DNA of 36,609 nucleotides from a virus, in the IMG/VR virus record IMGVR_UViG_3300000117_000005, positions 1-36,609 of that record; one strand, 5' to 3'. Position numbers and translations under genes: made by a program. Below are positions 204 to 22,517 of the stretch, in pieces. The notes beneath the pieces were generated by a model. That model did no database searches. It was given only the letters and a program-made list of their open reading frames with translations, and was not told the origin of the DNA. Within the stretch, counting starts at the first letter, position 1, and each line of letters starts with the position of its first letter.

Positions 204-217
204 CCCCCAGTTGAAAC

Positions 218-777: not shown

Positions 778-802
778 AGTATCAGAGGCTACAGAGTTTC
801 TT

Positions 803-991: not shown

Positions 992-1020
992 TTGATCTGA
1001 GCAAATAAATTAATTTGATT

Positions 1021-1682: not shown

Positions 1683-1691
1683 CAATCCAAC

Positions 1692-2120
1692 ATGAACAAA
1701 CTTAAGCAGTCCGAGATCAAATCATTCAGGGAGGAACTCCTAATCCAACAAGGAGGACGAGATCCTATTACAGGATTGCAGATCAAAGATGCGGTCTTAG
1801 ACCACGATCATGTCTCAGGACACGTCAGATGCGTTCTACAGCGTGAAGTCAATTCATTCGAGGGTAAGGTATGGAATGCGTACAAACGCTTTATACGGCC
1901 TCTTGGAGCCTCTTATGAGGATGTTCTCATTGCTATCATAGAATACTGGAGCAAAGATTACTCATCAAATCCTATCCATCCTAAGCACAGAACTGACACA
2001 GATAAGGTAGTCCGAGAGTACAGGCGTAGGATCAATAGAGCTAAAAGACCTCAGACAAAAGAGAAGTACAGAGTCCTAATAAGGGATTTGACAAAGAAGC
2101 CAGAATCACTACAGTCCTAA
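1692..2120 (+). CDS. His-Me finger nuclease, endonuclease VII-like
   Basis: Motif LDHDHVSGHVRCVLQREVNSFEGK matches the DH-H..G.vR..L...N..G core of T4 endonuclease VII-type nucleases. The N-terminal CxxC pair is missing. Confidence 0.55.
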   Translation: MNKLKQSEIKSFREELLIQQGGRDPITGLQIKDAVLDHDHVSGHVRCVLQREVNSFEGKVWNAYKRFIRPLGASYEDVLIAIIEYWSKDYSSNPIHPKHRTDTDKVVREYRRRINRAKRPQTKEKYRVLIRDLTKKPESLQS

Positions 2121-2122
2121 TC

Positions 2123-2314
2123 ATGTCAGAAGAACCTACCATTTCGTACCAAGACTTATCCCAAGCAGTCAACATTATAGACCTGGCTGCTAAACGTGGA
2201 GCATTCCACGGTAAAGAACTTTCCGTTGTTGGATCTCTTAGAGATAGAATAGAAGAGTTTCTATCATCTAAAGAAGAAGAAATTATCCCTCCCGATACAT
2301 CAGATCCAGAGTGA
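2123..2314 (+). CDS. Hypothetical protein (last gene of the plus-strand arm)
   Basis: ATG at 2123 lies 3 nt after the previous stop, and a terminator hairpin follows the gene. Confidence 0.55.
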   Translation: MSEEPTISYQDLSQAVNIIDLAAKRGAFHGKELSVVGSLRDRIEEFLSSKEEEIIPPDTSDPE

Positions 2315-2340
2315 TCTGCTCTCCGCACGCATGGCACCTC

Positions 2341-2377
2341 AAGGGCAGTGGGCTTAAAAACCTGCTGCCCTTTTTTT
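2341..2377 (+). terminator. Rho-independent terminator at the convergence point of the two arms
   Basis: AAGGGCAG (2341-2348) pairs with CTGCCCTT (2365-2372), followed by T7 (2371-2377). The T-run overlaps the stop of the convergent 788-aa gene. Confidence 0.75.
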
Positions 2378-4742
2378 AGTTACGGACAAGAGGGACTTGC
2401 TGAACTCCATCTTCCCTAGATTGAGAAGTAAGTATTCCAGGAATAGCTGCTCCAATCAAGCTTCCGTTCTTAATGTCAGAAGCAACCTTTTCAGCAATAT
2501 TTAAAGCCTTGCGGTAAACCGTATTAGCGGCATCTTGCCTTTTAAGAAAATTTGACTTAGAAGCTGCTGTTAAAACTTGTTTAGAATTAAGCAAATCTAA
2601 GTATTCTTTCCTGTATTTAGGGTTAAGGGTCATGTTATAAGCAGTCTCTAAAAACTTTTTATTAGAAGAATCTTTAATAGCTTTAGAGATTGCCATTCTT
2701 ATGTAAACAAAATGAGCTGCATCTGGAGCTAACTTGCCATCTACGTAATCTTGTCCAGCTTTTGCTAATGATTCCACTGCGTCTACTTTTGATCCAGATT
2801 TTAACAAAAAACCTATTTGTTGTACTCTTTTTTGAGCAGCCTTATTCGGGGCTAATCTATAAACTGAACTTTTTAAAATATCACCAGTGCGATCAGTTCC
2901 ATAAATAGCTTCCAATATTTGATTCATGTTGGCGTTAGCTGGCAACGACCTAATCTTAGCTGCAAAATAACTTCCGTATAAATCATTGGCTTCTGATGGA
3001 CTAACATTAGCAATCTCGTCCATAAATTTTTTTGCTTGATTGAAGTCATTAGTTCTCGGCTTCGCCATAAATATAGAATCAAGAAACTGATCGGCATTTA
3101 ATTCTCCCTTAGAGATAATTTCTCCGAGCCTAGTGTTCTTCTTGAAATCATTTAAAGCCTTAGCAGACCTTGAGTAAGCCTCGTCGACCTTTCTAAAATC
3201 ATCTCCAAGAGCAGTTCTTAGTTCTTTAATTAATTTTTTAGCGTTTGATTTTACTTGGCTTCCTACACTGCTGTTAAAGTTGGGGTCAGACTTAAGAATA
3301 TCTCCTAGTTCTCTAATTGCTAAATGAACTTGCTCTGCTGGCTTTGTGATTTCAACTCTATCTTCAAGTCCTATTTGCCTTCCAGCAGAATCAAAAAGAA
3401 CTACATCGCCCTCTTTTGGAGACTCCAGCAACTTTTTCCACCTCATCGCAGCTTTTTGAGCCTTGTCTCCAGGGTTGCTGTTTTTTATTATTTCATCAGC
3501 TAAGTTTACAGCACCTGCAACATTTATGTCTCCTAATCTTTTATAAACCTCAGGATATTCCCTGCCTATTAGTGCCATAGGCATTTGGAATTGAACCTTT
3601 TGTATATTAGATGCTAAATCTTGTGCTGATGAAAAAACATTAAGAAGTGTTTCCTCTGGATTTAAAAGGTCAATATCTTGCTTGGACAATCTTCCAAATG
3701 TTCTTGAAAGCATAGCAGAAAGATTATTAGAAGCTTCTGCGTATTCTTTAGCGTACTTAGCAGCTAGTCTTGGATTTTTTTCTAATGCCTTCTTAAACTG
3801 TGCAGCAGAAAACTCCTCTAAAGCAGCAGAAGGCTCTATAATTTCTTTAGAAGCCACTGCTTTTAATTCATCTATATCTACACCAAGATCAATTAAAGAA
3901 TTTATGCTTTTTACATCTCTAGCTTTTTTTCTAGCTGCTGGAGAAAGTTTTCGCCAGATAGCAGGAGCCAAATCCTCTAAAACTCCACCACCAGAAGTAG
4001 CTATAGCGTCAAAAACAACCTGACCACCGTCGAACTCTCCACCACCAGCTACTTGAATACCTTCTCTTATTCCAGATGTGGTAGCTCCAGAAGCAATGCC
4101 TCTAGCAACTTTTTTTGCTAGACCTTTCCCAGCAGAAGTGAATTTTCCTGCTGGCATAAATGTAGCTATTTCTCCAACTAAAGAGATAGCGTCTTGAAGA
4201 GACCATCCAGGAGAGTTTATAGCTAACTCTTCCCCATTTATAGTTATCGTTGGGTACGGGCCATCAATATTAACATCAAATCCTTCGTCAGCAAGAAGCA
4301 TAGCCCTTTCCTTAACATCTGGATATAGCAAAGCATTAACCATTCCACCAAAACCACCCCTGTACTCGTTAAGGTTCTTTAGTCTTATTTTCGCAGCTTC
4401 ATCAAGATCTTCAATACTAGGGGGCTTTTCAGATTCAAATTCCAGCCTTGATTGATATGACGGTATAACGCCTCTACGAACGCCTTCAAAATCCCTTCTC
4501 ATAGCCTCTAACTCCTTAGAAGCAAATTGCTTGGCAGATCGTTTTACTTTATCTAAAAGAGGTATTTCCTCAGGAGAATCTCTTAGCTCTCCCAAGGCAG
4601 GTTGATTTGGGGTTTGCCTTGGTTCTCCCGTGCCGTAACGAGCAACATACTCGTCTACTAGTATTTTTACGTCTTCAGTATTGCCAGCATTTTCAGCTTT
4701 TATAATAGCCTGCTTGAGCTGTTCTTGAGTTACATCAGCCAT
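2376..4742 (-). CDS. Large virion-associated protein (putative internal/ejection protein), 788 aa
   Basis: ATG start. Last and largest gene of the late operon. Helical, K/E/A-rich composition. The call rests on position only. Confidence 0.4.
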   Translation of the reverse strand: MADVTQEQLKQAIIKAENAGNTEDVKILVDEYVARYGTGEPRQTPNQPALGELRDSPEEIPLLDKVKRSAKQFASKELEAMRRDFEGVRRGVIPSYQSRLEFESEKPPSIEDLDEAAKIRLKNLNEYRGGFGGMVNALLYPDVKERAMLLADEGFDVNIDGPYPTITINGEELAINSPGWSLQDAISLVGEIATFMPAGKFTSAGKGLAKKVARGIASGATTSGIREGIQVAGGGEFDGGQVVFDAIATSGGGVLEDLAPAIWRKLSPAARKKARDVKSINSLIDLGVDIDELKAVASKEIIEPSAALEEFSAAQFKKALEKNPRLAAKYAKEYAEASNNLSAMLSRTFGRLSKQDIDLLNPEETLLNVFSSAQDLASNIQKVQFQMPMALIGREYPEVYKRLGDINVAGAVNLADEIIKNSNPGDKAQKAAMRWKKLLESPKEGDVVLFDSAGRQIGLEDRVEITKPAEQVHLAIRELGDILKSDPNFNSSVGSQVKSNAKKLIKELRTALGDDFRKVDEAYSRSAKALNDFKKNTRLGEIISKGELNADQFLDSIFMAKPRTNDFNQAKKFMDEIANVSPSEANDLYGSYFAAKIRSLPANANMNQILEAIYGTDRTGDILKSSVYRLAPNKAAQKRVQQIGFLLKSGSKVDAVESLAKAGQDYVDGKLAPDAAHFVYIRMAISKAIKDSSNKKFLETAYNMTLNPKYRKEYLDLLNSKQVLTAASKSNFLKRQDAANTVYRKALNIAEKVASDIKNGSLIGAAIPGILTSQSREDGVQQVPLVRN

Positions 4743-4771
4743 GAGTAATTAATTTATAAAAATAAACTTTG

Positions 4772-6037
4772 TTATTTATCAGTGTATCTATCAATAATAT
4801 TCTTGAGGACTTCATCATTCGATCCTTGCTTAGGAGTTACTGATTCTTCATCGCTTCCAGATTCTTTAAACTTAGAGTCAGCAATTTTTTTACCGTGGAC
4901 AACTTTAGTGTACTCATATTGAAGTCTTTTTAAGTTTTCAACTAACTGTTTTTGACTCATGGATTGATCTACGCTTCCGCGAACGGCTTGCAAAAACTCA
5001 ATTTCTCGTTCTGTAACATTACCTAGGGCACCCCCCGTAGGAGAAGCAGCTCTCATTGCATTAAGCTGATCAAAACCAATATTAGCTTTTATTGTATCTA
5101 AAAGAGATCTTAAATCGTTTGCTCTAGTTCCCCCAATATTTTTAAATACTTGACCAAAGACACCAGTTGTAAAGGATTCAGGATCTTCCGCTAATTCTAT
5201 AGATCTTTGAATCTCGTCAAGCACAAGAACTGATTTATCTAATTTTGATTCTTCTTTTTGCTTGGCAGCCTCAGTAGCAGCAGCAATTTCCTTTTTTCGC
5301 TTTATGTCTTCAGGAGATCCAGGAATTGGGTCCATTCTGAATGTACCATCTGCGAGTTTTACTAACTGCATTCCTGGAGCAATAGGGCCAAACTGTCCTT
5401 CGCCTCCTACGTTTATTGTAGTTCCAGATTTCTTTGAATTCTGAAATTCAATAAAAGAGATTGGTTTTTCTCCAGGAGGTAAAGTTCGTTTATAATATTC
5501 GTAATCTTCTATACTAACAGAAGGTTTTGGGTCAGCCTTAGGTTCGGCTTCCAACCTTTTAACATAAGCACCAAAAATCATGCCTGGATTTGCCTTTATT
5601 GCATCACTAATTCTTTTCTGCTGTTCAGGAGTAAGTTCTCTATCGCCAGTTAATTGACTCAATGCAAAAATATCGGCTTTGGTCATTTGCTCAAGCTGAG
5701 CAGCAGCTTTATCGGCAGCCCTATTAGCAAGACCCATTGCTTGGGCGTACTTTAAAGTTTCTTCAATAGGAACATATTTAGACAACTCTTCAGCGGTGAC
5801 ACCAGCAGGAACAAATTGATTATTTTTATCGCTTTCAATTATTTGATTTAAAAGTTTAATATTAAGTTCCTTTTTTTCCTTCTTCTCGATATTATCTTTA
5901 CGCTTCTCAAGACCTGACTGAATAGCATTAAATATTCCCTGATTAGCCTGAGCTTTAATGGCAGCTATCTGTGGAAGTGCTGAGTAATCTCTGCGAAGTG
6001 CGTTAAGATTTAATGGAGTTCTTGATTTAAGTGCCAT
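4772..6037 (-). CDS. Virion-associated protein (putative internal/ejection protein), 421 aa
   Basis: ATG start. K/E/A-rich. Lies in the late operon downstream of the tail fibre. The call rests on position only. Confidence 0.4.
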   Translation of the reverse strand: MALKSRTPLNLNALRRDYSALPQIAAIKAQANQGIFNAIQSGLEKRKDNIEKKEKKELNIKLLNQIIESDKNNQFVPAGVTAEELSKYVPIEETLKYAQAMGLANRAADKAAAQLEQMTKADIFALSQLTGDRELTPEQQKRISDAIKANPGMIFGAYVKRLEAEPKADPKPSVSIEDYEYYKRTLPPGEKPISFIEFQNSKKSGTTINVGGEGQFGPIAPGMQLVKLADGTFRMDPIPGSPEDIKRKKEIAAATEAAKQKEESKLDKSVLVLDEIQRSIELAEDPESFTTGVFGQVFKNIGGTRANDLRSLLDTIKANIGFDQLNAMRAASPTGGALGNVTEREIEFLQAVRGSVDQSMSQKQLVENLKRLQYEYTKVVHGKKIADSKFKESGSDEESVTPKQGSNDEVLKNIIDRYTDK

Positions 6038-6074
6038 AGTTATATTACTTTTAATTTTTAGTCTCCAGAGCTAG

Positions 6075-8081
6075 TTAGCTAATTCCAAGTTTTTTCTTGC
6101 CATACCCAATACCAAGATCTAAAAGACCTCCAACAACTGGGCCAGCAAATTCAGCAGCAAGTTGCTTGTCTCCTGAATCTCTAATTGCTTCAGATCTTTG
6201 AGTATTTTGTATTAAGCTTAATCTGTTACCTATATCTGTTCCAAAAACATTAAGCAAAACATTAGGATCTATTCCAATGTTAGGAGCTATTTGACTATAA
6301 ATACCACCCTCAATATCTGCCATTAGCCCAGCAGTAGCTCGTTGCTGACCAAGAAGATTACTTGCAAGCTGTAGGTTTACGTTCTTCTGTTCAGCTCGCT
6401 GCCTTCCAGCAAGCATTTTACTAATGTTTCCTAGACCTCGTCCTCCAGATACAGCTTGTCCGTAACCAGCTTGAGTTGCATCACGATCTTCAAGGAAAGA
6501 CAATGGCCCCATTAGTCTTTCAGCTTCTAGTCCCTGCATTTCAGACCTGCGAGCAAGTGATTGCATCAGTGGGCTTTGAGCATCACGTACTGCACCAGTA
6601 ATTTGGCCGTAAAGATCAGTAGCAAATCCTGCTTGCTGAGGAGCAATCTCTCTATCTAATGCTATTACCTCTTCGGCGAACTCTTTAGGTGCTCCAGATT
6701 TTATTTGGCTTACAGCTTCTGGGAAAATATCCTGCAACTGCCCTGGAGTAATCTCTCCTCTTTCAGCAAATGCAGCAATTAAACCAGTAATGCCAGATGT
6801 CTCAAGTATTTCGGTAATCTCACCTGAAGACAACCCATTGCCACCTCCAATATTTACTGAAACATTACCTCCAGCACCACCTTGACCTCCAGCAGAACTA
6901 ACATCTGTACTTACTGGGCCTGTTGTAACTGCACCACCAGTAAGGGTTGTTGCTCCAGTAGTAAGCGAAGTATCTCCAGTGGACACGTCACCTCCATAAA
7001 GGTCACCTCCAGTTAATGTACTGTCACCCCCAGTTAATGTTGTGGCTCCTGTACTAACAGTAGTATCTCCACCAGTAAGGGTTGTGTCTCCTATTTCAGA
7101 AGTAGATGAAGCGTCTGAGGTGCCACCTGTTGCGGTAGATGAACCCGTCTGGGTTGTGTCGCCAGAAGATACAAGCATCCCATTTTCGTATTGCTGCCCG
7201 TCAAATTCTCCTGTAAAATTAGGATCAAGTCCCTCATCTGTAAGTCCGTTTAATTCTGCGTCTGTCATATTTACTGGCCCCACTACGTCTTGTTGATTTC
7301 TAGACTCTAAACCTAGTGCATTTGCTAAATTTCTAATTCCAACTCCTTGATTAATTAATTCTTGGGCTTTTTCAGCCATTCCTTCTGGAATAAAAACACC
7401 AGAACCTGGGGGAAACTCCAGCCATCCACCACCACCAGTTGTTGTTTCTGGCAGGTCAATTCCTTCACCAGTTGCAGGATCTCCTGAACTAATTCCACTG
7501 CTTTCAGTACTACTATCAGTATTGGTATCGCTATTAACATCGGTAGTATTGGTAACAGTTTCATTGTTCACAGGAGCGCCTGATTCGTCCACAAATACTG
7601 GAACAAACCCTGGAGTTCTTGTGCCTATAATATCTTGTCCTGACTGCCTTCTTATTTGGTTAATCCTTATTAGTTCATCAAGGGTAACAACCCTTGAGTT
7701 TTCTCCATATCCAATTCTAACTCCTGGAACTATTCCTATTTGTTCACCCTCTTCATTACGTTTAACAATATTAACTGGCTCACCTGATAATTCCTCCCCC
7801 TGCATTTCTGGGCCTTCTGGCTCACCCAGTCCACCAGCAACATCATAAACCCAGTCAGGTAAACCATCGGGCAAGACTCCGTACCGAGCCATTATGTTAT
7901 TAATTGCTATTCTGGCTTGCATTATCCCCTCTGCACCCAATGGTGCACCACCAGACATACCTTGTAATCCACCAGGGCCAAATGGATCAGGCCCTGCTCC
8001 AGTATTTACTGACCAAGCAGATCCTTCTCCTGGGCTTTGAGGGTATATACCGTAGTTTATATCTGTCTGTGGAAAATACAT
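6075..8081 (-). CDS. Virion-associated protein with a central G/T/S-rich low-complexity repeat, 668 aa
   Basis: ATG shares one base with the fibre stop (TAATG at 8081). Central TLTGGD/TTLTGG-type repeats. Confidence 0.45.
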   Translation of the reverse strand: MYFPQTDINYGIYPQSPGEGSAWSVNTGAGPDPFGPGGLQGMSGGAPLGAEGIMQARIAINNIMARYGVLPDGLPDWVYDVAGGLGEPEGPEMQGEELSGEPVNIVKRNEEGEQIGIVPGVRIGYGENSRVVTLDELIRINQIRRQSGQDIIGTRTPGFVPVFVDESGAPVNNETVTNTTDVNSDTNTDSSTESSGISSGDPATGEGIDLPETTTGGGGWLEFPPGSGVFIPEGMAEKAQELINQGVGIRNLANALGLESRNQQDVVGPVNMTDAELNGLTDEGLDPNFTGEFDGQQYENGMLVSSGDTTQTGSSTATGGTSDASSTSEIGDTTLTGGDTTVSTGATTLTGGDSTLTGGDLYGGDVSTGDTSLTTGATTLTGGAVTTGPVSTDVSSAGGQGGAGGNVSVNIGGGNGLSSGEITEILETSGITGLIAAFAERGEITPGQLQDIFPEAVSQIKSGAPKEFAEEVIALDREIAPQQAGFATDLYGQITGAVRDAQSPLMQSLARRSEMQGLEAERLMGPLSFLEDRDATQAGYGQAVSGGRGLGNISKMLAGRQRAEQKNVNLQLASNLLGQQRATAGLMADIEGGIYSQIAPNIGIDPNVLLNVFGTDIGNRLSLIQNTQRSEAIRDSGDKQLAAEFAGPVVGGLLDLGIGYGKKKLGIS

Positions 8082-13284: not shown

Positions 13285-13749
13285 TCACTCACTGAAGATC
13301 CTCTTATTAAGCTCCCGCTGTCCGAAGTACCAACCGCCATAAGCAAATGCAATCGTAAAGATTTGCTGAAGGATGACACTCCTGTACTCATCCGGTGAAG
13401 TAAAGTATACGTAAGCAGCTATGATGTGTGCCGCTATTGCCAGAGTGGGGCGAACCCCGCTCTTGAATGCGTACAAGAGAATAAGCACCCACTTCTGTAG
13501 CGGTGATTCAGCAATCTTGCTCACCTCAATCAAGGCTCCTGACTCGGCTGTTGCGGCTTTCTGTGATGCCTGAAAGTCTTCCGAGTCCATCTCAACAGTC
13601 TTAGCATCAATCTGGAGCTTCGCCATAGCCATGTCGATCTCCGCTTTGGCTTTCATCCCCTTGATTTTCAGCCATCCAGATATGCCAGATCCAAGGAGTC
13701 CTATCAATCCTCCTGATCCTGCATTTGCTAGTGCTTCTAACCAACTCAT
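13285..13749 (-). CDS. Membrane protein, possible holin (3-TM GTA-holin-like)
   Basis: Gly-rich N-terminus, a central charged helix, and two C-terminal hydrophobic segments (WVLILLYAF...LAIAAHIIAAYVYF, IFTIAFAYGGWYF). ATGA-coupled to the upstream TM protein. Confidence 0.4.
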   Translation of the reverse strand: MSWLEALANAGSGGLIGLLGSGISGWLKIKGMKAKAEIDMAMAKLQIDAKTVEMDSEDFQASQKAATAESGALIEVSKIAESPLQKWVLILLYAFKSGVRPTLAIAAHIIAAYVYFTSPDEYRSVILQQIFTIAFAYGGWYFGQRELNKRIFSE

Positions 13750-13943
13750 GCTTCCTTACCCTTTTGATAAACCTTGCCACCGATACCAGCACCGAGAAAC
13801 ATAGCACAGATTCCTGTAAGTTCTATCAGGTTAGCACCTAAGTGCAGACCCGCTATACCTATATAACCACTTATTGCGATACATGCCCACATACCAATGC
13901 GGATGCTGCTGGGTTTTCCTGTTTTTTCGTTCAGTGAGTTCAT
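13746..13943 (-). CDS. Small 2-TM protein, holin-like
   Basis: 65 aa with two hydrophobic helices (IGMWACIAISGYIGIAGL, LTGICAMFLGAGIGG) and a charged C-terminus QKGKEA. Confidence 0.45.
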   Translation of the reverse strand: MNSLNEKTGKPSSIRIGMWACIAISGYIGIAGLHLGANLIELTGICAMFLGAGIGGKVYQKGKEA

Positions 13944-13947
13944 AATT

Positions 13948-15333
13948 CTACTGTAATAGCCCGATCCCAGAGGAGGCCGAGCGGGTTAGGGTGGCGGTGC
14001 CGACCGAAAACTCGTATGCGCCTATATCCCATGTCCCCGATCTCGATACTCCGTCAATGTCGGTGTTGTAGAGCGCTCCTATTGACGAGTCTCCAGAATC
14101 TATTGCTGGTGAGCCTGCTTGTAGTGATGGCGAGGGCAGAGCGTTGACTAATGGGTCTGCCTCGGTGGAGTTCGCTCCGTAGTTTCTGGCCGCGACCATA
14201 GCCGACAACGACGTGTAGGACGTGCCGCCAAAGTTGAATTTGTTGGTCGCCGATCCATCGTAGACATTGTAGTCCAACTCGTTATCCGCAATAGCTCCGT
14301 CGTCGTCGTCGAATATGAACACGCCGCCACCTGAGTTGGTCTGCTCGAAGATGTTGTTTTTAATATGCACCGATCCGGCTTTCTGTGAAGTCGCCGTTTG
14401 CACTCTTAGCATTACGCCGTCCGTCCGGCCAATGTAATTATTATAAACATAGACATCGTCAACCCCCTTGAGGACTATGTTGGCCCCGCCAAAAGTGTCC
14501 ATGTCCACGCCGTTGACCGTGCCGCTTTCAAAATAGCATACATTATTCCAGATATGGACCTCGTCAACTGGATCAGTATCGCCCCACCCCTCAAGGAATA
14601 TGTTCTGGGTGTGGTTGCGGATCACATTGCTATATACCCGAGCAAAGGAGACATTGGAATATCCGTCAACATCCGATCGAATGAACTGAATACCGTCTGG
14701 ATGGACCGCAATGTAGTTCGTATCCAGATTGTCGTATATATCATTACCATTAATAGTAAAATACTCGCCATGTATGTCTATCCCGTCCGCCGCATTGTCG
14801 TGTATGTCGTTGTTCGATATGATAATCCCGTTCGCGTAAGTTGAGTCCGATGAGTGACCAGCCGCTACATTAACCCCTTTTCGCGTTGCGTAGATTTCGT
14901 TATTGTCCACAAGCATCCGGTTTCCGTTCCGGATGTACACGCCGGACATTGATCCGCTCGAAACTGCTGGCGTGTGGATAGTGCAGTTCTGGACCGTTCC
15001 TTGGTCAACATTAGTGAAATCTATTGCGTGAAACCCCTCGGCCCATCCGGTGACGATCAATCCGTCTATGGTAATCCCGTCAGCATTCGCATCTATCCTG
15101 CCCGAAAGGGTTGGCGAGTCTCCAGCGTTGTTGATTATCGTTAGGTTTGCAACATCTATTGTCAGATCCTCCGAATAGGTTCCTGAGTGGACAATGATCG
15201 TGTCAGAGGCGGAAGCAGCTGTTTCAGCCGCTGAAATGGTGGAATAAGTTTGACCGCTACCGACATGCAAATCGGCAGCTATAAGTCTGCCTAAAAGCAG
15301 CAGCGCAATAAAAGTTAAATTAAAGATCCGCAT
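13948..15333 (-). CDS. Secreted right-handed parallel beta-helix (pectate-lyase-fold) protein
   Basis: Signal-peptide-like N-terminus MRIFNLTFIALLLLGRLIAADL. PbH1-type repeats (NNDIHDNAADGIDIHG, NGNDIYDN). WDIGAYEF near the C-terminus. An alternative upstream ATG exists at 15375. Confidence 0.7.
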   Translation of the reverse strand: MRIFNLTFIALLLLGRLIAADLHVGSGQTYSTISAAETAASASDTIIVHSGTYSEDLTIDVANLTIINNAGDSPTLSGRIDANADGITIDGLIVTGWAEGFHAIDFTNVDQGTVQNCTIHTPAVSSGSMSGVYIRNGNRMLVDNNEIYATRKGVNVAAGHSSDSTYANGIIISNNDIHDNAADGIDIHGEYFTINGNDIYDNLDTNYIAVHPDGIQFIRSDVDGYSNVSFARVYSNVIRNHTQNIFLEGWGDTDPVDEVHIWNNVCYFESGTVNGVDMDTFGGANIVLKGVDDVYVYNNYIGRTDGVMLRVQTATSQKAGSVHIKNNIFEQTNSGGGVFIFDDDDGAIADNELDYNVYDGSATNKFNFGGTSYTSLSAMVAARNYGANSTEADPLVNALPSPSLQAGSPAIDSGDSSIGALYNTDIDGVSRSGTWDIGAYEFSVGTATLTRSASSGIGLLQ

Positions 15334-16057
15334 AAGATCTCGTTGATCCAGTGTTGTATAGCCACGACACCTCATCTGTAGTCATAACTCTGTTATAACA
15401 GGCTAAAAAGTCGATTTGGGTGTCCTGAGCAGTTGAGTTCCCTCCGAGATACGTGGTATTGCTAAAATCAACGTAGGTTCCCGCCGTAGAGCCGTCAGAA
15501 GTCCCATCTACAAACACCTCTACCGTGTCTGTTGACGCAGTGAAATTGACTGTTATTGTATACCATGTTGATGTTGCAGGGACGATTGCCGTATCGTGAA
15601 CGACATCACCCATCTCAACTCTAATCCCCGCCGTTATCCAACGCACATAAACAGCGCCGCCGTGACTACTAAAAATATAGTCCCCATTGGTGATTGATCC
15701 AATCCCCTGAAAGCGAATTGTAAATGAAGCGTCCGAGTCAGTGGCCATCCATGAGTTGGACAGGCCCGTAACGCTCCAGTTCGCTGCTGGCGAGTCGTCT
15801 GACACCCCGTATCCACTAGCATATGTCGGAGTACCGCTTGCAGATAGGTCATGCGTTCCAGAGTTGTGCTGGTTTATGAGATCGGCGGATGTCCCACTCG
15901 TGCTCATGTCGTACCAAGCAATGAGGCTAGTCGTTCCCGGCGAGCCTCCCCCGCTGGCCTCGGTGACTGTCTTCCACTGGCTCACCCTCGTTAAACTCTG
16001 GCTGAACGCGAGCGCTGTTATATTGATCGCTAGTAATACGTAGATTAGTTTCTTCAT
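15320..16057 (-). CDS. Secreted LamG/concanavalin-A-like lectin-domain protein
   Basis: MKKLIYVLLAINITALAFSQS signal-peptide-like N-terminus. C-terminal ...FLACYNRVMTTDEVSWLYN is typical of LamG domains. Confidence 0.6.
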   Translation of the reverse strand: MKKLIYVLLAINITALAFSQSLTRVSQWKTVTEASGGGSPGTTSLIAWYDMSTSGTSADLINQHNSGTHDLSASGTPTYASGYGVSDDSPAANWSVTGLSNSWMATDSDASFTIRFQGIGSITNGDYIFSSHGGAVYVRWITAGIRVEMGDVVHDTAIVPATSTWYTITVNFTASTDTVEVFVDGTSDGSTAGTYVDFSNTTYLGGNSTAQDTQIDFLACYNRVMTTDEVSWLYNTGSTRSYADL

Positions 16058-16061
16058 TGCG

Positions 16062-17408
16062 TTATTGTAGTAGTCCTATTCCTGAACTTGCGCTGCGGGT
16101 TAGGGTGGCGGAGCCGGAGGGGGTTCCAGCTCCGTATTCGTAGGCTCCTCTGTCCCACGTGCCGTCTACTCCTCTGGTCTCGCCAAGCATATCCGTAGTG
16201 TACGGGGAACTTAATGTTGTCCCTGCCCAACTTGCTGGAAATGTTCCACTGAGGGTAAAGTCGCCGCCCGCATAGTCGGTAAAAACAGTTGAGGTTATCA
16301 GAACCTCATTAGAGCCACTGTTGGTTACGTCGTAAGCGTTGTAATTATCAGTCCAGTTGGTGCTACCGCTGATGTTGCTAGAGTACCAGATATTGTTTGA
16401 GACTAGGTTGTCAGAGCCACTGTCGATAAGAATGTTTCCAGAACCAGATTCATTGTCGTGGTCGATTATCGTGTTGTTGTAGAATCTGAGACCAGTGACA
16501 TCCCCTCCGGTGCTGTTGTGGTTGATTATGCCTGATACTGAGTTCTGCCCATAGTCGGTTGCCGCCCACTCCTCCCAAAACAAGTTCCCGTAAATTCTTA
16601 TATTGCTACAGGCTCCAGACATGAAGATTACTCCAGAACCGTTTATGTTCTTAAATGTATTGTACCTTATATCCCATTCAGTGGATGTGCTGAGTCCCAT
16701 GTATATCGCCTGCCCATGGGCCGTTGCAGTAGAGTGCGACTCTTTAAAGTAGTTGTACTCAAGCACATTGTTGTCGGAGTTTGTCCAGATAACGCAATCC
16801 CTCTTCCATGCGTGTATGTAGCAATACGCTAGCGTCTTGAAGTCCCCTCCAACGGATCGTATCCCAGATTGCGAGTCGCCAGTGGCAACGGAAGCCCCCT
16901 GTGTTGATGTAACCTCTATGTGCTTCAGCGATATGTAGTCTATCGGAGAAGACTGCATATTTATGCCGTGCTGCCCATCTGTTGTAGATGTCAACTCTAC
17001 CTTAAAGCCGTGCGCGGTTACACTGCCGTCCCCATCTCCAACGACTCCATCAATATCCCAGTAGCCCGTCAGTATATCCCATACCGTAACTGTGCTAGTA
17101 AATGTCGCCACGCCATCCCCGTAGGTGGAATTCCATCCGGTTTCCGTCCCGTGCGCTGATTCGGTTGCCTTTTTTATGTATATGTAAGTAGTCCCATCCT
17201 CTGCGTCGTTGAAATCGTAGTTGGTGTAAGTCCCATCCGCTATGTAGTAGGTATCGCCACGGGTTAGCGTGGATGGAAGATCGTCCCACGCATCCGTCCA
17301 GCTAGTTCCATCCAGAGCGCCAGTGGCTCCGTCCCTTATGTAGTGATCTGCCGACCACAGTGGGCTAATTACAAGACAGGTCAGACTAATGAAGAACAGC
17401 TTGTGCAT
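16062..17408 (-). CDS. Secreted right-handed beta-helix protein (second copy)
   Basis: MHKLFFISLTCLVISPLWSADHY signal-like N-terminus. Contains DGTSWTDAW, NNTIIDHDN and NLVSNNIWY repeats and WDRGAYEY. Shares its 15-aa C-terminal tail with the 13948 gene. Confidence 0.65.
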   Translation of the reverse strand: MHKLFFISLTCLVISPLWSADHYIRDGATGALDGTSWTDAWDDLPSTLTRGDTYYIADGTYTNYDFNDAEDGTTYIYIKKATESAHGTETGWNSTYGDGVATFTSTVTVWDILTGYWDIDGVVGDGDGSVTAHGFKVELTSTTDGQHGINMQSSPIDYISLKHIEVTSTQGASVATGDSQSGIRSVGGDFKTLAYCYIHAWKRDCVIWTNSDNNVLEYNYFKESHSTATAHGQAIYMGLSTSTEWDIRYNTFKNINGSGVIFMSGACSNIRIYGNLFWEEWAATDYGQNSVSGIINHNSTGGDVTGLRFYNNTIIDHDNESGSGNILIDSGSDNLVSNNIWYSSNISGSTNWTDNYNAYDVTNSGSNEVLITSTVFTDYAGGDFTLSGTFPASWAGTTLSSPYTTDMLGETRGVDGTWDRGAYEYGAGTPSGSATLTRSASSGIGLLQ

Positions 17409-18543
17409 ACTTTTTTCTAAACGATTGTAAAGTGCTGGCGTTGGTCCACTGAATAGTCACAGCAAGGGCGAGAGACCCAGTTGAGTCCTCCGTGGCCGAA
17501 TTTGCTATCGCTGCGAATATGCGCCCCTCGTCGGTGTTTGCGTCCCCTAGACCAGTGGTTGCAGATGGAGACGGAACCATAACTTCCCCACTCATCCACT
17601 GCGATGAGGTTGAACCCAAAGCGCTGACCCGCACCTTCATTGAAAATGGGTATCTTGTTGCGCTGTTGCTAACGGCTGATGACGTGTCCTCGTATAGCGT
17701 TGTAGCTCCTAGCTTCACCCTGAGAACAAAAGACTGCGATCCGTTGTTTTGAAGAATGTCGCCATAGATGGAAAGCTCTACTGTTTTATCAGTAGACAGA
17801 TCACCAGCCCCTATGGTGTAGCTGTAGAGAGTCGTTTCCGACGTAGTGTTCGTTATGTCGGTTTCGGATGTCGAACGCTCCTCAATTACTGGACCGCTTC
17901 CACCGCCACCTACACCAAGCTGGACATCCGTACCAGCATCGTTAGTAAACCAAAGCTCGTTTGGCGTAGCTGTTTTCACCCAAATCTGCCCGTAACCGTC
18001 AACGTCAGGCGCATTCGCTTCAGCTTGCTCTAGTAGTGAGAGCGTCCCGGTAAATGTAGGAGAATCTGAAACACTTACCACTGTGTTGGCGTTCGTGGTG
18101 TCCACGCCTGTAGCGACCAGCACCTGTCCAACGTCAACAGTAGTAGATGTATTAAGCCCTGCGCCAAGGTCGTCTCCCGATGCGGGGAACACCTGTAGAA
18201 TATTAGCCCCGTTATTGTACACCGTCTGCTTGGAGCCTTTGGTGAATCCCGCTAGAACTACAGCGTCATTAGCGTTAGCCACCGTTGTGATGTCGTTGAT
18301 CTGTGCAGTGAGTGCCAGCCCACCACCCTGTGTTTGCGTGGTACCAGCCGTAAGCTCTGTATCGAGGTCCGAAACCAAGGAGCCTGTCATTGCCACTGAA
18401 CCATCCTGAACGATAAAGTCCTGATCTGTAGTAGCTGTGTTAATCTTCGCAGCGGTATCCCACTCTGAATCAAGGGTAACGCTTTGGCTGTATACGGATG
18501 CCGCAACAGCAAGAGATGATAGTAATGCTATTAGTTTTTTCAT
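17386..18543 (-). CDS. Secreted fibre-like protein
   Basis: The internal ATG at 18543 gives MKKLIALLSSLAVAASVYSQS, 4 nt after the upstream stop. Motif DGYGQIWVKTATPNELWFTNDAGTDVQL resembles phage fibre motifs. Confidence 0.55.
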   Translation of the reverse strand: MKKLIALLSSLAVAASVYSQSVTLDSEWDTAAKINTATTDQDFIVQDGSVAMTGSLVSDLDTELTAGTTQTQGGGLALTAQINDITTVANANDAVVLAGFTKGSKQTVYNNGANILQVFPASGDDLGAGLNTSTTVDVGQVLVATGVDTTNANTVVSVSDSPTFTGTLSLLEQAEANAPDVDGYGQIWVKTATPNELWFTNDAGTDVQLGVGGGGSGPVIEERSTSETDITNTTSETTLYSYTIGAGDLSTDKTVELSIYGDILQNNGSQSFVLRVKLGATTLYEDTSSAVSNSATRYPFSMKVRVSALGSTSSQWMSGEVMVPSPSATTGLGDANTDEGRIFAAIANSATEDSTGSLALAVTIQWTNASTLQSFRKKYAQAVLH

Positions 18544-18547
18544 GTTA

Positions 18548-18859
18548 TTAAGGTGTGTATGCTGCTGCGTAAGTCGTGAGATCCGCAATGGACATCGTTT
18601 CATTGGTTAAAGCTGTGTCTAGGGCTGCTCCGTCTGCTAGGTTAAAGGCTGCTGCGTCGAAGAAGATATAGTCCACAAAGGCATTGAACTCGGTATCGTT
18701 GTCGTTGTGCCCGTTCGCATTTGCTGCGGTAATCAACTCAGCATTAAAATTGGCCCAAGTGAGATTCCCGCCAGCAGCAGTAGACCCCAGTAGAATCCTG
18801 TACCCTGCACGAGTAAGCATCAGCCCCTCGTTGATCATCTGGAGGCCGAGCGTCCTCAT
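18548..18859 (-). CDS. Hypothetical structural-module protein (103 aa)
   Basis: ATG start, TAATG-coupled to the upstream gene, in the late operon. Confidence 0.55.
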   Translation of the reverse strand: MRTLGLQMINEGLMLTRAGYRILLGSTAAGGNLTWANFNAELITAANANGHNDNDTEFNAFVDYIFFDAAAFNLADGAALDTALTNETMSIADLTTYAAAYTP

Positions 18860-19167
18860 TAGTCTACAAACTCAGTTGACTGGATTACCGCGGCGGAGCT
18901 TACCTGAATGAACTTGGCAGCAGCAGCAGCATTCTTGCTTAGAACAATCAGTCCCTGCTCTTTTACTAGCAAATGCCCATTGCTGGCTGATGGGGTACTA
19001 CCGTCAAACGTGACCCATACGTTGTTGTCCTGAATGTCTATAACAACGTAGTCAGTGTCCGTGTGGAAAGCCGCAAAGGAGACTGCTGATCCAGCTACTG
19101 CCAGATTCTCTGGAGTGCCGTTTGGATTCGGGTTCCCGATGTATAAATTTGAGGTTCTTGAGTTCAT
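18859..19167 (-). CDS. Hypothetical structural-module protein (102 aa)
   Basis: ATG start with TAATG coupling on both sides. Confidence 0.55.
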   Translation of the reverse strand: MNSRTSNLYIGNPNPNGTPENLAVAGSAVSFAAFHTDTDYVVIDIQDNNVWVTFDGSTPSASNGHLLVKEQGLIVLSKNAAAAAKFIQVSSAAVIQSTEFVD

Positions 19168-19796
19168 TATCTAGATTGGTTGGAGACGTATGTATTAAAT
19201 CGTTTTTTGACCGTGTTGTTGTTCATTACTTGGTCAGTCTTTTCTAGCTCATTAGCTAGGTACTTGTTAGCTACTTGCTCTTCTGCCAATGCTTTGTCGT
19301 GCTGACCATCCATTCTTAAGAAGTCAGCATAAACACTGTGAGCAACGTAGTAAAAAAATTCTAAAGGAATCTCCTGTGTGCTTTTATCACCATCAAGATC
19401 CCAGGTGCTAGGAATGTCAGTTAGCTCTTTCTTGTACGTAACAAACGCAGAATCAGCATCTGAGGTTGTTAGGTTAAGGATGTGAGCACCATCTGACTGT
19501 ACAAAAAATTCAAACTCTAGTGCAGAGTTTCTGACAAATGGTTGAGTTCTGTGAATGCGTATAAACTCAGCAATGTCGTTCTTGTCTGTTTCAGTAAAAG
19601 CAACCACAGAACTAGCTACTGTTCTACTTTCACCAACAACCAAGTATCTAGGCCACATTGGAGTAGCCTGATACGCTTCGTACATTCTGCGTTTAGCAAA
19701 ATTAAGAAGCTGAGTCTTTTCGTTGGTAGTAAACGAAGATACACCAGCTAACGCCGATATTAAATCGTATAAGTCTCTGTTGTACTTTACTTGCAT
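19167..19796 (-). CDS. Putative head-tail adaptor / tail tubular protein A-like protein (209 aa)
   Basis: Size and position (two genes after the capsid) resemble T7 gp11. Sequence resemblance is only loose. Confidence 0.35.
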   Translation of the reverse strand: MQVKYNRDLYDLISALAGVSSFTTNEKTQLLNFAKRRMYEAYQATPMWPRYLVVGESRTVASSVVAFTETDKNDIAEFIRIHRTQPFVRNSALEFEFFVQSDGAHILNLTTSDADSAFVTYKKELTDIPSTWDLDGDKSTQEIPLEFFYYVAHSVYADFLRMDGQHDKALAEEQVANKYLANELEKTDQVMNNNTVKKRFNTYVSNQSR

Positions 19797-22235: not shown

Positions 22236-22276
22236 GATTGTTTCCACTCCTTAACGCCGAGCGATGGCGAAGCCTG

Positions 22277-22285
22277 ATTATAGCA
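22277..22285 (-). promoter_or_regulatory. Candidate extended -10 element (TGcTATAAT) upstream of scaffold and capsid
   Basis: The reverse complement of 22277-22285 is TGCTATAAT. I found no convincing -35, and the host sigma specificity is unknown. Confidence 0.3.
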
Positions 22286-22298
22286 CATCTTTTTTATG

Positions 22299-22517
22299 CT
22301 ACAGGACAGATGAAAATTTCTTTTGTAGACCCTGCCAGTCAACCATTTGCAGAATCTGATCGTAAGTAATTATCCGTCCCGAAAGTTGTTGAAGCTTGTC
22401 TGTGTCAGCTTCGTGCATATCAGCTATACACTCTTCTCGAAGAGCGTTAATAAGCTGAATGAATCTTGCAAAATGTTCGTGGTGGGATAGGGTCTTTAGG
22501 TCTTCTTCTATGTTCAT
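22299..22517 (-). CDS. Hypothetical protein (72 aa)
   Basis: ATG start, ATGA-coupled to the portal stop. Confidence 0.55.
   Translation of the reverse strand: MNIEEDLKTLSHHEHFARFIQLINALREECIADMHEADTDKLQQLSGRIITYDQILQMVDWQGLQKKFSSVL

What the first reader, a model, noticed from the sequence alone, without database searches (positions are those of the whole stretch)
13948..13995. Identical 15-aa C-terminal tag ATLTRSASSGIGLLQ on both beta-helix proteins, with 9 of 15 codons differing synonymously (partner at 16062-16109)
Seen by hand translation of both 3' ends. The 475-aa gene ends GCC ACC CTA ACC CGC TCG GCC TCC TCT GGG ATC GGG CTA TTA CAG TAG. The 448-aa gene ends GCC ACC CTA ACC CGC AGC GCA AGT TCA GGA ATA GGA CTA CTA CAA TAA. 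The peptides are identical. Nine of 15 codons differ and every difference is synonymous. Two Ser codons switch between the TCN and AGY families, and even the stop codon differs. Upstream of the tag the two proteins share little beyond G.WD.GAYE. Inference: there is very strong purifying selection on the peptide itself, so this is not recent gene conversion. The tail therefore has a specific function. Possibilities are a docking peptide for a shared partner (virion adaptor or chaperone), a processing or sorting signal, or a degron. It lacks the hydrophobic helix plus basic tail of sortase or PEP-CTERM-type signals. It is far shorter than a T9SS C-terminal domain. I do not recognise it.
Basis: seen in the sequence. 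Interest (0 to 1): 0.7.

Follow-up and report, generated by a model that had tools for sequence, protein, structure and literature searches.

The report
Shared C-terminal plug on swappable phage enzymes
Two unrelated sugar-cutting enzymes of one phage, and a third in a sister phage, end in the same 17-residue flexible tail written in different codons; it sits exactly where enzyme genes are swapped, so it is probably a constant connector for interchangeable enzymes, though its partner is unknown.

Summary
On the minus strand, the 475-aa gene (13948-15375) and the 448-aa gene (16062-17408) both end ATLTRSASSGIGLLQ*. Nine of 15 codons differ, all synonymously. The shared module is really 17 residues (G[T/S]ATLTRSASSGIGLLQ) and has two parts. 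Its first 7 codons are 20/21 nt identical. Its last 10 codons are as scrambled as random synonymous choice would make them.

A sister phage (L003/L005/L006) has the same flanking genes. It carries a third, unrelated 586-aa beta-helix protein with the same tail. Homology between the two phages resumes exactly at the tail's first codon.

In more distant relatives, the last enzyme of the same variable cassette ends in a looser version of the motif: R/K at -11, a small/polar stretch, a hydrophobic Phi-[AG]-Phi-Phi, then a polar end. This is far beyond chance.

AlphaFold models give confident polysaccharide-lyase-like beta-helices with the tail disordered. No RNA structure, promoter, terminator or recombinase explains the conservation.

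Best reading: a lineage-specific C-terminal connector peptide kept when enzyme bodies are exchanged. It is analogous to the N-terminal "conserved docking peptides" of Klebsiella/K1-5 phage depolymerases. No partner was identified, and all cassette proteins carry signal peptides. A sorting or processing signal therefore remains a serious rival.

The parts
13948..14001 (-). Tail module copy 1: 17 codons (GTATLTRSASSGIGLLQ) plus the TAG stop, at the 3' end of the 475-aa gene.
   Evidence: It is nucleotide-identical over the 15-aa tag to the tail of the 586-aa gene in L003/L005/L006. Homology with L003 begins at 14001.
16062..16115 (-). Tail module copy 2: 17 codons (GSATLTRSASSGIGLLQ) plus the TAA stop, at the 3' end of the 448-aa gene. 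The last 10 codons are synonymously recoded, and 8 of those 10 end in A.
13981..13997 (-). 17-nt core CCGCCACCCTAACCCGC, identical in all three tail copies (copy 1).
   Evidence: it occurs only twice in the window, against 0.02 expected; the 21-nt match to L003.
16095..16111 (-). The same 17-nt core (copy 2).
13948..15375 (-). C-type cassette enzyme of 475 aa (461 aa from the ATG at 15333). It has a signal peptide, a right-handed beta-helix that is polysaccharide-lyase-like, a choice-of-anchor-Q-like C-terminal segment, and then the tail.
   Evidence: Pfam Beta_helix. NCBIfam NF041518 at residues 417-456. AF2 mean pLDDT 92 with tail residues 446-461 below 50. Foldseek matches to Pel9A, PL6 lyases and fucoidan lyase.
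16062..17408 (-). Extra C-type cassette enzyme of 448 aa. It has a signal peptide, a beta-helix from a different large family (~3000 representatives), and then the tail.
   Evidence: AF2 mean pLDDT 86 with residues 428-448 below 50.
15320..16057 (-). B-type cassette protein of 245 aa with a signal peptide; function unknown. It starts 4 nt after tail copy 2.
   Evidence: No family hits.
17386..18603 (-). A-type cassette protein (405-aa ORF; 385 aa from MKKLIAL). Its N-terminal ~180 residues are conserved with L003 and its C-terminal part is swapped. This marks the 5' mosaic junction, near 18065.
13746..13943 (-). 65-aa small membrane protein with two hydrophobic segments, starting 4 nt after tail copy 1. 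It is 100% identical in L003 and is present only next to signal-peptide-bearing cassettes.
13285..13749 (-). 154-aa conserved membrane protein. This is the constant 3' flank used to find relatives.
18548..19167 (-). 103-aa and 102-aa genes forming the constant 5' flank of the cassette.

Best explanation
The tail is a portable, lineage-specific C-terminal connector peptide.

Setting. The window is a complete ~36.5-kb tailed-phage genome. Between its head genes and a block of small membrane-protein genes lies a hypervariable cassette. The cassette has an A protein that is fibre-like (conserved N-terminus, swapped C-terminus), a B protein of unknown function, and a C protein that is a polysaccharide-lyase-like beta-helix. 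In this phage clade, whichever enzyme body occupies the C position is fused in frame, 5-9 residues after its GA[YH]E[FY] motif, to the same 17 residues, G[T/S]ATLTRSASSGIGLLQ. The window carries two C-type enzymes, so the tail occurs twice.

Shown:
- The tail is kept at the peptide level while its synonymous sites are scrambled.
- It is the exact 3' recombination junction of the cassette.
- It is flexible in monomer models and not part of the beta-helix fold.
- A looser version (basic residue at -11, small/polar spacer, hydrophobic Phi-[AG]-Phi-Phi at -5 to -2, polar last residue) terminates C proteins with unrelated bodies across the wider phage lineage.

Inferred:
- The tail binds one constant partner encoded by the phage backbone, most simply by adding its terminal hydrophobic strand to a partner sheet, with the basic residue as a second contact. 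Interchangeable enzymes can then be plugged into the same machinery.
- The codons of the two copies differ because the copies have separate histories, or because identical direct repeats 2.1 kb apart would delete the intervening genes, or both.
- The nucleotide-identical first 21 nt mark where crossovers between tails have recently occurred.
For: 1. Three bodies that are unrelated outside their last 30-65 residues carry the identical tail.
2. Homology between the window and L003 stops inside the A gene and resumes at 14001, the first codon of the module. L005 and L006 repeat this arrangement.
3. The last 10 codons show 14 nucleotide differences and no amino-acid differences. Codon identity there is 1/10, against 2.5 expected. 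There is no RNA structure (z about 0) and no promoter or terminator at either tail.
4. Ten independent C-protein tail types from related phages have R/K at -11 in 7 of 10, against a 5% background, and hydrophobic residues at -4 to -2 in 8-9 of 10. None of 20,000 random draws matched this.
5. Cellular homologues of both enzymes (35-58% identity) have their own different short tails and never this one. The tail therefore belongs to the phage and not to the enzyme.
6. AF2 models have confident bodies (pLDDT 92 and 86) with the tail below 50 in both. The models are bare lyase-like beta-helices. No N-terminal particle-binding or C-terminal trimerisation domain was detected, which leaves the tail as the only phage-specific appendage.
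7. There is precedent. Short conserved docking peptides shared by different depolymerases of a phage group are documented and experimentally validated (PMC6872550 and PMC13352976).
Against: - No partner was identified, and only monomer models could be run.
- All four cassette proteins have Sec-type signal peptides. They should leave the cytoplasm where virions assemble, so a virion partner is hard to reconcile unless the partner is itself exported or membrane-bound.
- In the signal-peptide-less sister clade, backbones 94-100% identical in the 154-aa protein carry different tails that share only the loose motif. A partner there cannot demand an exact sequence. This makes the strict 15-17 residue identity in the window clade harder to explain by docking alone.
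- The tail is absent from the A and B proteins.
- The known docking peptides are N-terminal.
- The disorder call may partly reflect the lack of tail conservation in the alignments.
Confidence: 0.42

Rival explanations
1. The tail is a sorting, retention or processing signal for exported enzymes. After Sec export, it directs the enzyme to a location or machine, or it is cleaved off as a short propeptide. Possible destinations are the outer membrane or cell surface, a release pathway, or tethering to the adjacent small membrane protein until lysis. Possible cleavage would be after the conserved basic residue at -11.
For: - All cassette proteins in this clade have signal-peptide-like N-termini.
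- The segment just before the tail in the 475-aa protein matches NCBIfam 'choice-of-anchor Q' above its cut-off. By its NCBI definition (my knowledge), that domain class precedes diverse C-terminal sorting signals.
- An R/K lies exactly 10 residues from the C-terminus in 7 of 10 tail types.
- Signal-peptide-bearing cassettes are always followed by a 62-70-aa membrane protein with two hydrophobic segments.
- The tail is flexible.
Against: - The same tail motif, including the -11 basic residue, occurs on cassettes whose proteins have no signal peptide and are presumably cytoplasmic (L011, L013, L024, L025, L045).
- The tail has no hydrophobic helix plus basic end, no LPXTG/PEP/GlyGly motif, and is far too short for a T9SS domain (sequence).
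- Exported cellular homologues do not use this tail.
- The tail was not found in 185,579 reference genomes.
Confidence: 0.22
2. The tail is an intrinsic assembly element of the enzymes themselves. For example, it could be a short C-terminal hairpin or strand that locks an oligomer (trimer) together. On this reading no other protein is the partner.
For: - The pattern is strand-like Phi-x-Phi-x-R, then a Ser-rich turn, then strand-like Phi-G-Phi-Phi.
- The tail is disordered in the monomer models, as expected for an element that orders only in an oligomer.
- C-terminal parts of phage tailspikes commonly mediate trimerisation (PMC6872550).
Against: - The same tail serves three unrelated bodies.
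- Cellular homologues fold without it.
- The best structural matches are polysaccharide lyases rather than phage tailspikes.
- 17 residues is very short for an oligomerisation domain.
- An intrinsic element would be expected to travel with the body, yet in the window clade it stays with the backbone.
Confidence: 0.15
3. The tail is mainly a DNA-level recombination linker. A short conserved sequence at the 3' edge of the variable cassette provides the homology for swapping enzyme genes between phages, and the encoded peptide is incidental.
For: - The mosaic breakpoint lies exactly at the module's first codon.
- The 21-nt 5' part is identical in all three genes, including rare codons.
- The 17-mer core is unique to the two tails in the window.
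- L003's module is chimeric: its GGC TCC codons match copy 2 and the rest matches copy 1.
Against: - In the 3' 30 nt the two copies differ at 14 nt without a single amino-acid change. A purely DNA-level element would do the opposite.
- Conservation across the wider lineage is at the level of residue classes, with different nucleotides.
- No site-specific recombinase was detected in the genome.
- 21 nt is marginal for homologous recombination.

This explanation probably describes a real secondary role, not the primary one.
Confidence: 0.1
4. The tail is a degron or a protease-recognition tail that sets the lifetime of the enzymes.
For: The tail is a flexible C-terminal peptide with a hydrophobic patch near the end.
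Against: - The last residue is polar and variable (Q/S/N/E/R/P), not the nonpolar end typical of ssrA-like or Prc-type tails (my knowledge).
- There is no reason for a degron to sit at the cassette junction.
- A degron does not explain the conserved basic residue at -11.
Confidence: 0.04

Closest known systems
N-terminal 'conserved docking peptides' of secondary depolymerase receptor-binding proteins in Klebsiella podophages (KP32, K11, KP34) and the 7- and 11-residue peptides of K1-5/K1E/SP6 tailspikes (PMC6872550; PMC13352976)
   Same: - A very short peptide is conserved within a phage group.
- It is shared by different beta-helix depolymerase-like enzymes of the same phage.
- It is retained when the enzymatic body is exchanged.
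- It marks a module boundary.
- It lets a phage carry two enzymes at once.
   Different: - Here the peptide is at the C-terminus, not the N-terminus.
- Here the N-termini are signal peptides.
- No T4gp10-like branching or adaptor domain was detected in the neighbouring proteins.
- Attachment to a virion is not shown and is questionable.
- The partner is unknown.
Conserved particle-binding domains of P22-like and other tailspikes, with swapped receptor-binding parts (modular RBP exchange; summarised in PMC6872550)
   Same: A constant attachment module is joined to a variable beta-helix body. Sharp mosaic junctions separate them in otherwise syntenic, closely related genomes.
   Different: Those modules are folded N-terminal domains of ~100+ residues. 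Here the module is a 17-residue disordered C-terminal tail.
C-terminal protein-sorting signals that follow 'choice-of-anchor' domains (PEP-CTERM, LPXTG, GlyGly-CTERM, T9SS C-terminal domain; NCBIfam definitions, my knowledge)
   Same: - The tail lies immediately after a choice-of-anchor-Q-like segment.
- It sits on proteins with signal peptides.
- The same tail is shared by several unrelated exported proteins of one genome.
   Different: - It has no transmembrane helix plus basic cluster, no signature motif and no folded C-terminal domain.
- No cognate sorting enzyme is encoded nearby.
- The motif also occurs on proteins without signal peptides.
Short 'P.NLR[IV]..' tails of the cellular homologues of both enzyme families
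   Same: The position is the same, 5-25 residues after WD.GAYE. The build is the same: a Pro/Gly/Ser-rich linker followed by a short strand-like end.
   Different: The sequences differ. The cellular tails look like an isolated first strand of an FN3-type domain and vary from gene to gene. The phage tail is specific to the phage lineage and identical across different bodies.

Membership tests
Conserved docking peptide / branching-domain RBP systems (KP32, K1-5, SP6 type) | A short peptide conserved among different depolymerase-type proteins of the same phage group and retained on body exchange | tested here: met
   The same 17-residue module occurs on the 475-, 448- and 586-aa bodies. The breakpoint lies at the module's start.
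Conserved docking peptide / branching-domain RBP systems (KP32, K1-5, SP6 type) | The peptide is at the N-terminus of the secondary RBP | tested here: not met
   The module is at the extreme C-terminus. The N-termini are signal-peptide-like.
Conserved docking peptide / branching-domain RBP systems (KP32, K1-5, SP6 type) | A partner protein with a T4gp10-like branching or adaptor domain | tested here: inconclusive
   Pfam, PHROGs and NCBIfam give no such hit for the cassette proteins or the flank proteins scanned. No profile-profile or structural search of the A and B proteins was run.
Conserved docking peptide / branching-domain RBP systems (KP32, K1-5, SP6 type) | Physical, peptide-dependent incorporation into the virion | not testable with these tools
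   This needs virion proteomics or engineering.
Sortase/exosortase/rhombosortase-type C-terminal signals (LPXTG, PEP-CTERM, GlyGly-CTERM) | A signature motif followed by a hydrophobic transmembrane helix and a basic cluster at the C-terminus | tested here: not met
   The sequence ATLTRSASSGIGLLQ has only a 4-residue hydrophobic patch and ends in Gln. NCBIfam finds no signal model.
T9SS C-terminal sorting domain | A folded C-terminal domain of ~70-100 residues | tested here: not met
   The tail is 17 residues and is predicted disordered. Pfam and NCBIfam give no hit.
Intramolecular chaperone C-terminal domain of tailspikes and fibres (Peptidase_S74) | A self-cleaving C-terminal domain of ~100-150 residues | tested here: not met
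   There is no Pfam hit and only 17 residues follow the beta-helix cap.
Right-handed parallel beta-helix polysaccharide lyase/hydrolase fold (Pel9A/PL6-like) | Beta-helix fold of the body | tested here: met
   Pfam Beta_helix with E 1.5e-12. AF2 pLDDT 92 and 86. Foldseek matches 1ru4, 8bwk, 7xzd and others at probability 1.0.
Right-handed parallel beta-helix polysaccharide lyase/hydrolase fold (Pel9A/PL6-like) | Catalytic residues and substrate | not tested
   Identity to solved lyases is only 9-17%. No active-site mapping was done.
Shufflon / invertible tail-fibre segment systems (Rci, Gin/Cin) | A site-specific recombinase plus inverted crossover sites flanking alternative gene ends | tested here: not met
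   No recombinase was found in the ORFs scanned with Pfam and PHROGs across the genome. The two copies are direct repeats, not inverted.

The most novel reading that the evidence does not exclude
The tail is a previously undescribed C-terminal address tag of a phage-encoded, Sec-exported enzyme set. The phage would export a swappable kit of glycan-binding and glycan-cutting proteins into the host envelope. The tag would tether or hand them to a constant phage membrane component, such as the adjacent 65-aa protein with two hydrophobic segments or the 154-aa protein, or to the virion during exit. That would be an envelope-located, plug-and-play phage enzyme complex with no described counterpart. 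It would exist in two interconvertible versions in sister phages, exported and cytoplasmic.
Probability: 0.15. Interest if true: 0.8.

Novelty: new variant of a known kind. Interest (0 to 1): 0.55.

Why it matters
A confirmed 17-residue C-terminal connector would be a new handle for phage engineering. Any depolymerase could then be fitted to this phage scaffold by adding a short tail at the end opposite to the one used so far. It would also show that short docking peptides are a general, convergently evolved solution for carrying several host-range enzymes.

The two copies are synonymously recoded. This may be a natural case of a phage keeping a repeated peptide while avoiding a recombinogenic DNA repeat.

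The accompanying observation may be the more surprising lead. Whole cassettes switch between signal-peptide-bearing and signal-peptide-less forms, together with a change of the neighbouring small membrane protein. This raises the question of where these proteins act during infection.

Tried and rejected
- Protein search with three concatenated tails was uninformative. Even the exact self-match cannot reach E <= 10 in a 5.8-billion-sequence database.
- Back-translated pattern scans gave 0 hits in IMG/VR, 0 in 185,579 reference genomes and 1 in JGI metagenomes (L003). The metagenome collection is incomplete. It missed L006 and the window itself, so rarity cannot be claimed.
- A search for prophage relatives and a host in reference genomes with the 154-aa alignment found none. 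The host stays unknown.
- RNA-structure and regulatory explanations are rejected. Folding z-scores are 0.08 and 0.04, and no promoter or terminator lies at the tails.
- Shufflon or invertase-type switching is rejected. No recombinase was found, and the repeats are direct.
- I tested whether the window's tail is hidden by a frameshift in the closest 448-aa homologue, P0064, which ends ...ARSASGGAMSGGEMR. Nothing appears in the other frames.
- I tested whether co-resident exported proteins share a tail in the groundwater contig L029 that encodes P0064. They do not.
- I tested whether the tail covaries strictly with the backbone. It does not in the signal-peptide-less clade.
- PHROGs and NCBIfam gave no annotation for the A, B, 65-aa and 154-aa proteins.
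- The closest phage record in the phage collection (C75C1, MCP 65% identical; host not given) is essentially unannotated.
- Literature searches found no description of C-terminal conserved tails or of signal-peptide-bearing fibre/depolymerase cassettes.
Full report
**1. The observation**

On the minus strand, a 475-aa ORF (13948-15375; gene callers start it at 15333, giving 461 aa) and a 448-aa ORF (16062-17408) both end ATLTRSASSGIGLLQ followed by a stop. Six of the 15 codons are identical and nine differ. Every difference is synonymous. Two Ser codons switch between the TCN and AGY families, and the stop codons differ (TAG and TAA).

- BLASTP finds similarity between the two proteins only over the last ~65 residues, which are the D.DG..R…WD.GAYE segment plus the tail.
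- An ENA assembly (L001) spans both tails and a Logan assembly (L002) covers the 475-aa gene's tail. Both are 100% identical to the window.

**2. Refinement of the observation**

The shared module begins two codons earlier (GGC ACC / GGC TCC, i.e. G-T/S), so it is 17 residues long. It has two parts.

- Its first seven codons are 20/21 nt identical. They use CGC and CTA, which are rare in both gene bodies.
- In its last ten codons only one codon is shared.
- Simulating random synonymous choice from each gene's own codon usage gives 3.6 identical codons expected out of 15. It gives 2.5 out of 10 for the 3' part, against 1 observed, so those sites are saturated. It gives P about 5e-4 for five identical codons at the start.
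- At conserved residues just upstream of the tail, 7 of 19 codons are identical. The 3' part of the tail therefore looks as old as the rest of the two genes. The 5' part does not.
- The 17-mer CCGCCACCCTAACCCGC occurs only at the two tails in the window.
- In the 448-aa gene's copy, 8 of the last 10 codons end in A, although only 22% of that gene's codons do. I cannot explain this.

**3. Genomic setting**

The window has a 67-bp exact terminal repeat, so it is a complete ~36.5-kb genome. It is a tailed phage. It encodes a large terminase, a portal-sized protein, an SU10/LUZ24-type major head protein, tail-fibre proteins, a helicase and an endonuclease VII. The closest phage record in the phage collection is the unannotated 'Phage C75C1', whose head protein is 65% identical; its host is not given. 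No relatives were found in 185,579 reference genomes, so the host is unknown.

The two genes lie in a four-gene block (13948-18603) between head-associated genes and a run of small membrane-protein genes. This block, together with the two small genes upstream of it, has ~50% GC and G/C-rich third positions. The rest of the genome has ~40% GC and A/T-rich third positions.

**4. What the two proteins are**

- The 475-aa protein matches Pfam Beta_helix. AlphaFold2 gives a confident model (pLDDT 92, pTM 0.90). Its best structural matches are polysaccharide lyases: Pel9A, PL6 alginate lyases, fucoidan lyase and RbmB. Phage tailspikes appear further down the list.
- The 448-aa protein belongs to a different, very large family of ~3000 representatives. 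It also models as a beta-helix (pLDDT 86).
- In both models the tail, and only the tail, falls below pLDDT 50 (residues 446-461 and 428-448). It is not predicted to pack on the body.
- Residues 417-456 of the 475-aa protein match NCBIfam 'choice-of-anchor Q' above its curated cut-off.
- Homologues of both proteins at 35-58% identity are mostly proteins with signal peptides. At least one sits next to cellular polysaccharide-synthesis genes.
- These homologues almost always end 5-25 residues after WD.GAYE in a Pro/Gly/Ser-rich linker plus a short strand-like segment, most often P.NLR[IV]... None of them has the window's tail.
- A short C-terminal tail is therefore a family habit, but this particular tail belongs to the phage.

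**5. The key result: the same tail on a third body, at the mosaic junction**

A back-translated scan for TRSASSGIGLLQ found one further contig, L003. Exact-protein look-ups added L005 and L006 with the same arrangement.

- L003 is a sister phage. The 102/103-aa genes upstream and the 65-aa and 154-aa genes downstream are 88-95% identical at the DNA level to the window.
- Between these flanks L003 encodes a different cassette of 288-, 251- and 586-aa proteins.
- The 586-aa protein has Pfam Pel9A-like beta-helix hits on record. It shares nothing with the 475- or 448-aa proteins except the last ~30 residues. It ends GSATLTRSASSGIGLLQ*.
- Homology between the two genomes is lost inside the first cassette gene, near window 18065. 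It resumes at window 14001, which is the first codon (GGC) of the 17-residue module.
- L003's module is nucleotide-identical to the 475-aa gene's copy, except that its second codon (TCC) is that of the 448-aa gene's copy.
- The tail is therefore the constant 3' edge of a swappable cassette. Three unrelated enzyme bodies have been joined to it in frame, each 5-9 residues after a GA[YH]E[FY] motif.

**6. The wider lineage**

Through the 154-aa and 103-aa flank proteins I recovered about 30 related viral loci.

- The canonical cassette has three genes: A (227-421 aa, with a conserved N-terminus), B (216-366 aa) and C (448-868 aa). C lies directly upstream of the membrane-protein genes.
- The window is unusual in carrying an extra C-type gene, the 448-aa one, between A and B.
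- C proteins with unrelated bodies end in recognisably similar tails: …YILRSSSASIALLSQ, …YILRSSFSSLALLS, …PKRVSTSAGALLE, …IIKTNGQQLALLN, …RYRDKEILAVLQR, …SANRGQSVRAIVAQ and …PIRSEKALIETIV.
- Over ten independent tail types, position -11 is Arg or Lys in seven, against a 5.1% background. Positions -10 to -7 are small or polar. Positions -4 to -2 are hydrophobic in 8-9 of ten. The last residue is usually polar. None of 20,000 random internal segments from the same proteins reached these counts.
- In the signal-peptide-less sister clade, however, backbones 94-100% identical in the 154-aa protein carry different tails. There the tail travels with the gene body and only the motif is conserved. Exact identity across different bodies is a property of the window/L003 clade.

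**7. Explanations that were excluded**

- Neither tail region folds better than shuffled sequence (z = 0.08 and 0.04).
- No promoter-like or terminator-like site lies at either tail.
- No integrase, invertase or other site-specific recombinase was found in the ORFs scanned with Pfam and PHROGs across the genome. The repeats are direct.
- The tail has no transmembrane helix plus basic end and no LPXTG/PEP/GlyGly motif. It is far shorter than a T9SS or intramolecular-chaperone domain (sequence).
- The closest homologue of the 448-aa protein, P0064, ends …ARSASGGAMSGGEMR. It does not hide the tail in another frame, and its neighbours share no tail.

**8. Interpretation**

*Shown:*
- Selection acts on the peptide.
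- The tail is a constant module at a recombination junction.
- It is flexible and not part of the enzyme fold.
- It belongs to the phage lineage rather than to the enzyme families.
- The lineage-wide requirement is a basic residue ten positions from the end plus a short hydrophobic patch before a polar terminus.

*Inferred:* the tail connects interchangeable enzymes to one constant partner. The documented analogue is the short conserved docking peptide shared by different depolymerases in Klebsiella, K1-5 and SP6-type podophages. That peptide can be as short as seven residues and has been shown experimentally to be necessary for incorporating the second enzyme (PMC6872550 and PMC13352976). The differences are that the present peptide is C-terminal and that no branching or adaptor domain was detected.

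The two-part codon pattern is best read as follows. The 3' part records old or independent histories of the two copies under strict peptide constraint. It is possibly reinforced by selection against a 51-nt perfect direct repeat that would delete the 2.1 kb in between. The nucleotide-identical 5' 21 nt record recent crossover between tails. That would make the tail both a functional peptide and, secondarily, the homology that guides cassette exchange.

**9. Weaknesses and rivals**

- The largest difficulty for virion docking is the signal peptides. All four cassette proteins of the window, and all cassette proteins in L003, L009/10, L017, L026/27 and L038, have classic signal-peptide-like N-termini.
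- Their homologues in sister phages begin exactly at the mature N-terminus. For example, …SLFG|ATSITQYGTTVTF lines up with MATSVTRHGVTWTF.
- Signal-peptide-bearing cassettes are always followed by a 62-70-aa membrane protein with two hydrophobic segments. Signal-peptide-less cassettes are followed by a 26-aa ORF with one hydrophobic segment.
- Exported enzymes cannot join a virion assembled in the cytoplasm, so the partner may be a membrane or periplasmic component. Alternatively the tail may be a sorting, retention or processing signal. The choice-of-anchor-Q context and the fixed basic residue fit that reading.
- Against the sorting reading, the same motif occurs on the signal-peptide-less versions.
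- An intrinsic oligomerisation clamp, a purely DNA-level linker and a degron are less likely, for the reasons given under the rival explanations.
- I put the docking/connector reading at about 0.4 and the sorting/processing reading at about 0.2.

**10. Verdict**

- The feature is real, non-random and under selection. It is better described as a 17-residue C-terminal module at a cassette junction than as a 15-residue tag.
- It is a new variant of a known principle: short conserved connector peptides on swappable phage depolymerases. Here it sits at the opposite end of the protein and in an unusual context of exported proteins.
- Its partner and mechanism remain unproven.

Noticed in passing
window 13948-18603 (all four cassette genes); L003, L009/L010, L017, L026/L027, L038 versus L011, L013, L019-L025, L045: Entire cassettes come in two forms. 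In some phages every cassette protein has a Sec-type signal peptide. In sister phages the homologous proteins start exactly at the mature N-terminus. The signal-peptide form always co-occurs with a 62-70-aa membrane protein with two hydrophobic segments (window 13746-13943). The other form co-occurs with a 26-aa ORF with one hydrophobic segment (MTVILSLAAFLVLAYVIAETLERLRK). This suggests a concerted switch between exported and cytoplasmic versions, possibly linked to the lysis system.
   Followed up: partly
window 1-67 and 36543-36609: There is an exact 67-bp terminal direct repeat, so the window is a complete, circularly assembled or terminally redundant phage genome of ~36.5 kb.
   Followed up: partly
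window ~13900-19200: The cassette plus the 102/103-aa genes have ~50% GC and G/C-rich third codon positions. The rest of the genome has ~40% GC and A/T-rich third positions. This is consistent with foreign, possibly host-derived, origin of this block.
   Followed up: partly
Homologues P0002-P0046 and P0064-P0213 (C-termini): Cellular homologues of both beta-helix families very often end, just after WD.GAYE, in a short 'P.NLR[IV]..' tail. It looks like an isolated first strand of an FN3-type domain, and longer homologues continue into real FN3/Ig domains at that point. Members without signal peptides end in hydrophobic strands such as GVFRMVF or SSGVLVLFLG. The role of these tails is unknown.
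   Followed up: partly
window 16065-16094: In the 448-aa gene's tail copy, 8 of the last 10 codons and the stop codon end in A, although only 22% of that gene's codons do. The 475-aa gene's copy is G/C-ending in 7 of 10. This stretch lies immediately upstream of the next gene's start codon.
   Followed up: no
whole window; L050 2869-3381: No Pfam-recognisable endolysin or integrase was found among the window's larger ORFs. A close relative (L050) has a Phage_lysozyme2 gene between the portal and scaffold genes, and that gene is absent at the same place in the window (22247-22514).
   Followed up: no
window 13285-13749 (N-terminus of the 154-aa protein): The conserved membrane protein begins …NAGSGGLIGLLGSGISGW, which contains a GLIGLL stretch resembling the tail's SGIGLLQ. 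This is probably a coincidence between Gly/Leu-rich segments and was not tested.
   Followed up: no
L029 (groundwater contig, 1-6706): The closest homologue of the 448-aa protein sits in a run of six exported proteins (Sec, lipoprotein and Tat signals; one has weak polysaccharide-lyase-14 similarity), followed by small ORFs, the first with a hydrophobic N-terminal stretch. This may be another phage-borne cassette of exported glycan enzymes, without a shared tail.
   Followed up: partly
window 15320-15375: The 475-aa ORF's first ATG overlaps the end of the 245-aa gene by 56 nt. Gene callers use the ATG at 15333 (461 aa), which gives a typical signal peptide (MRIFNLTFIALLLLGRLIAA|DLHVG). The 405-aa ORF likewise most likely starts at MKKLIAL (385 aa).
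   Followed up: yes
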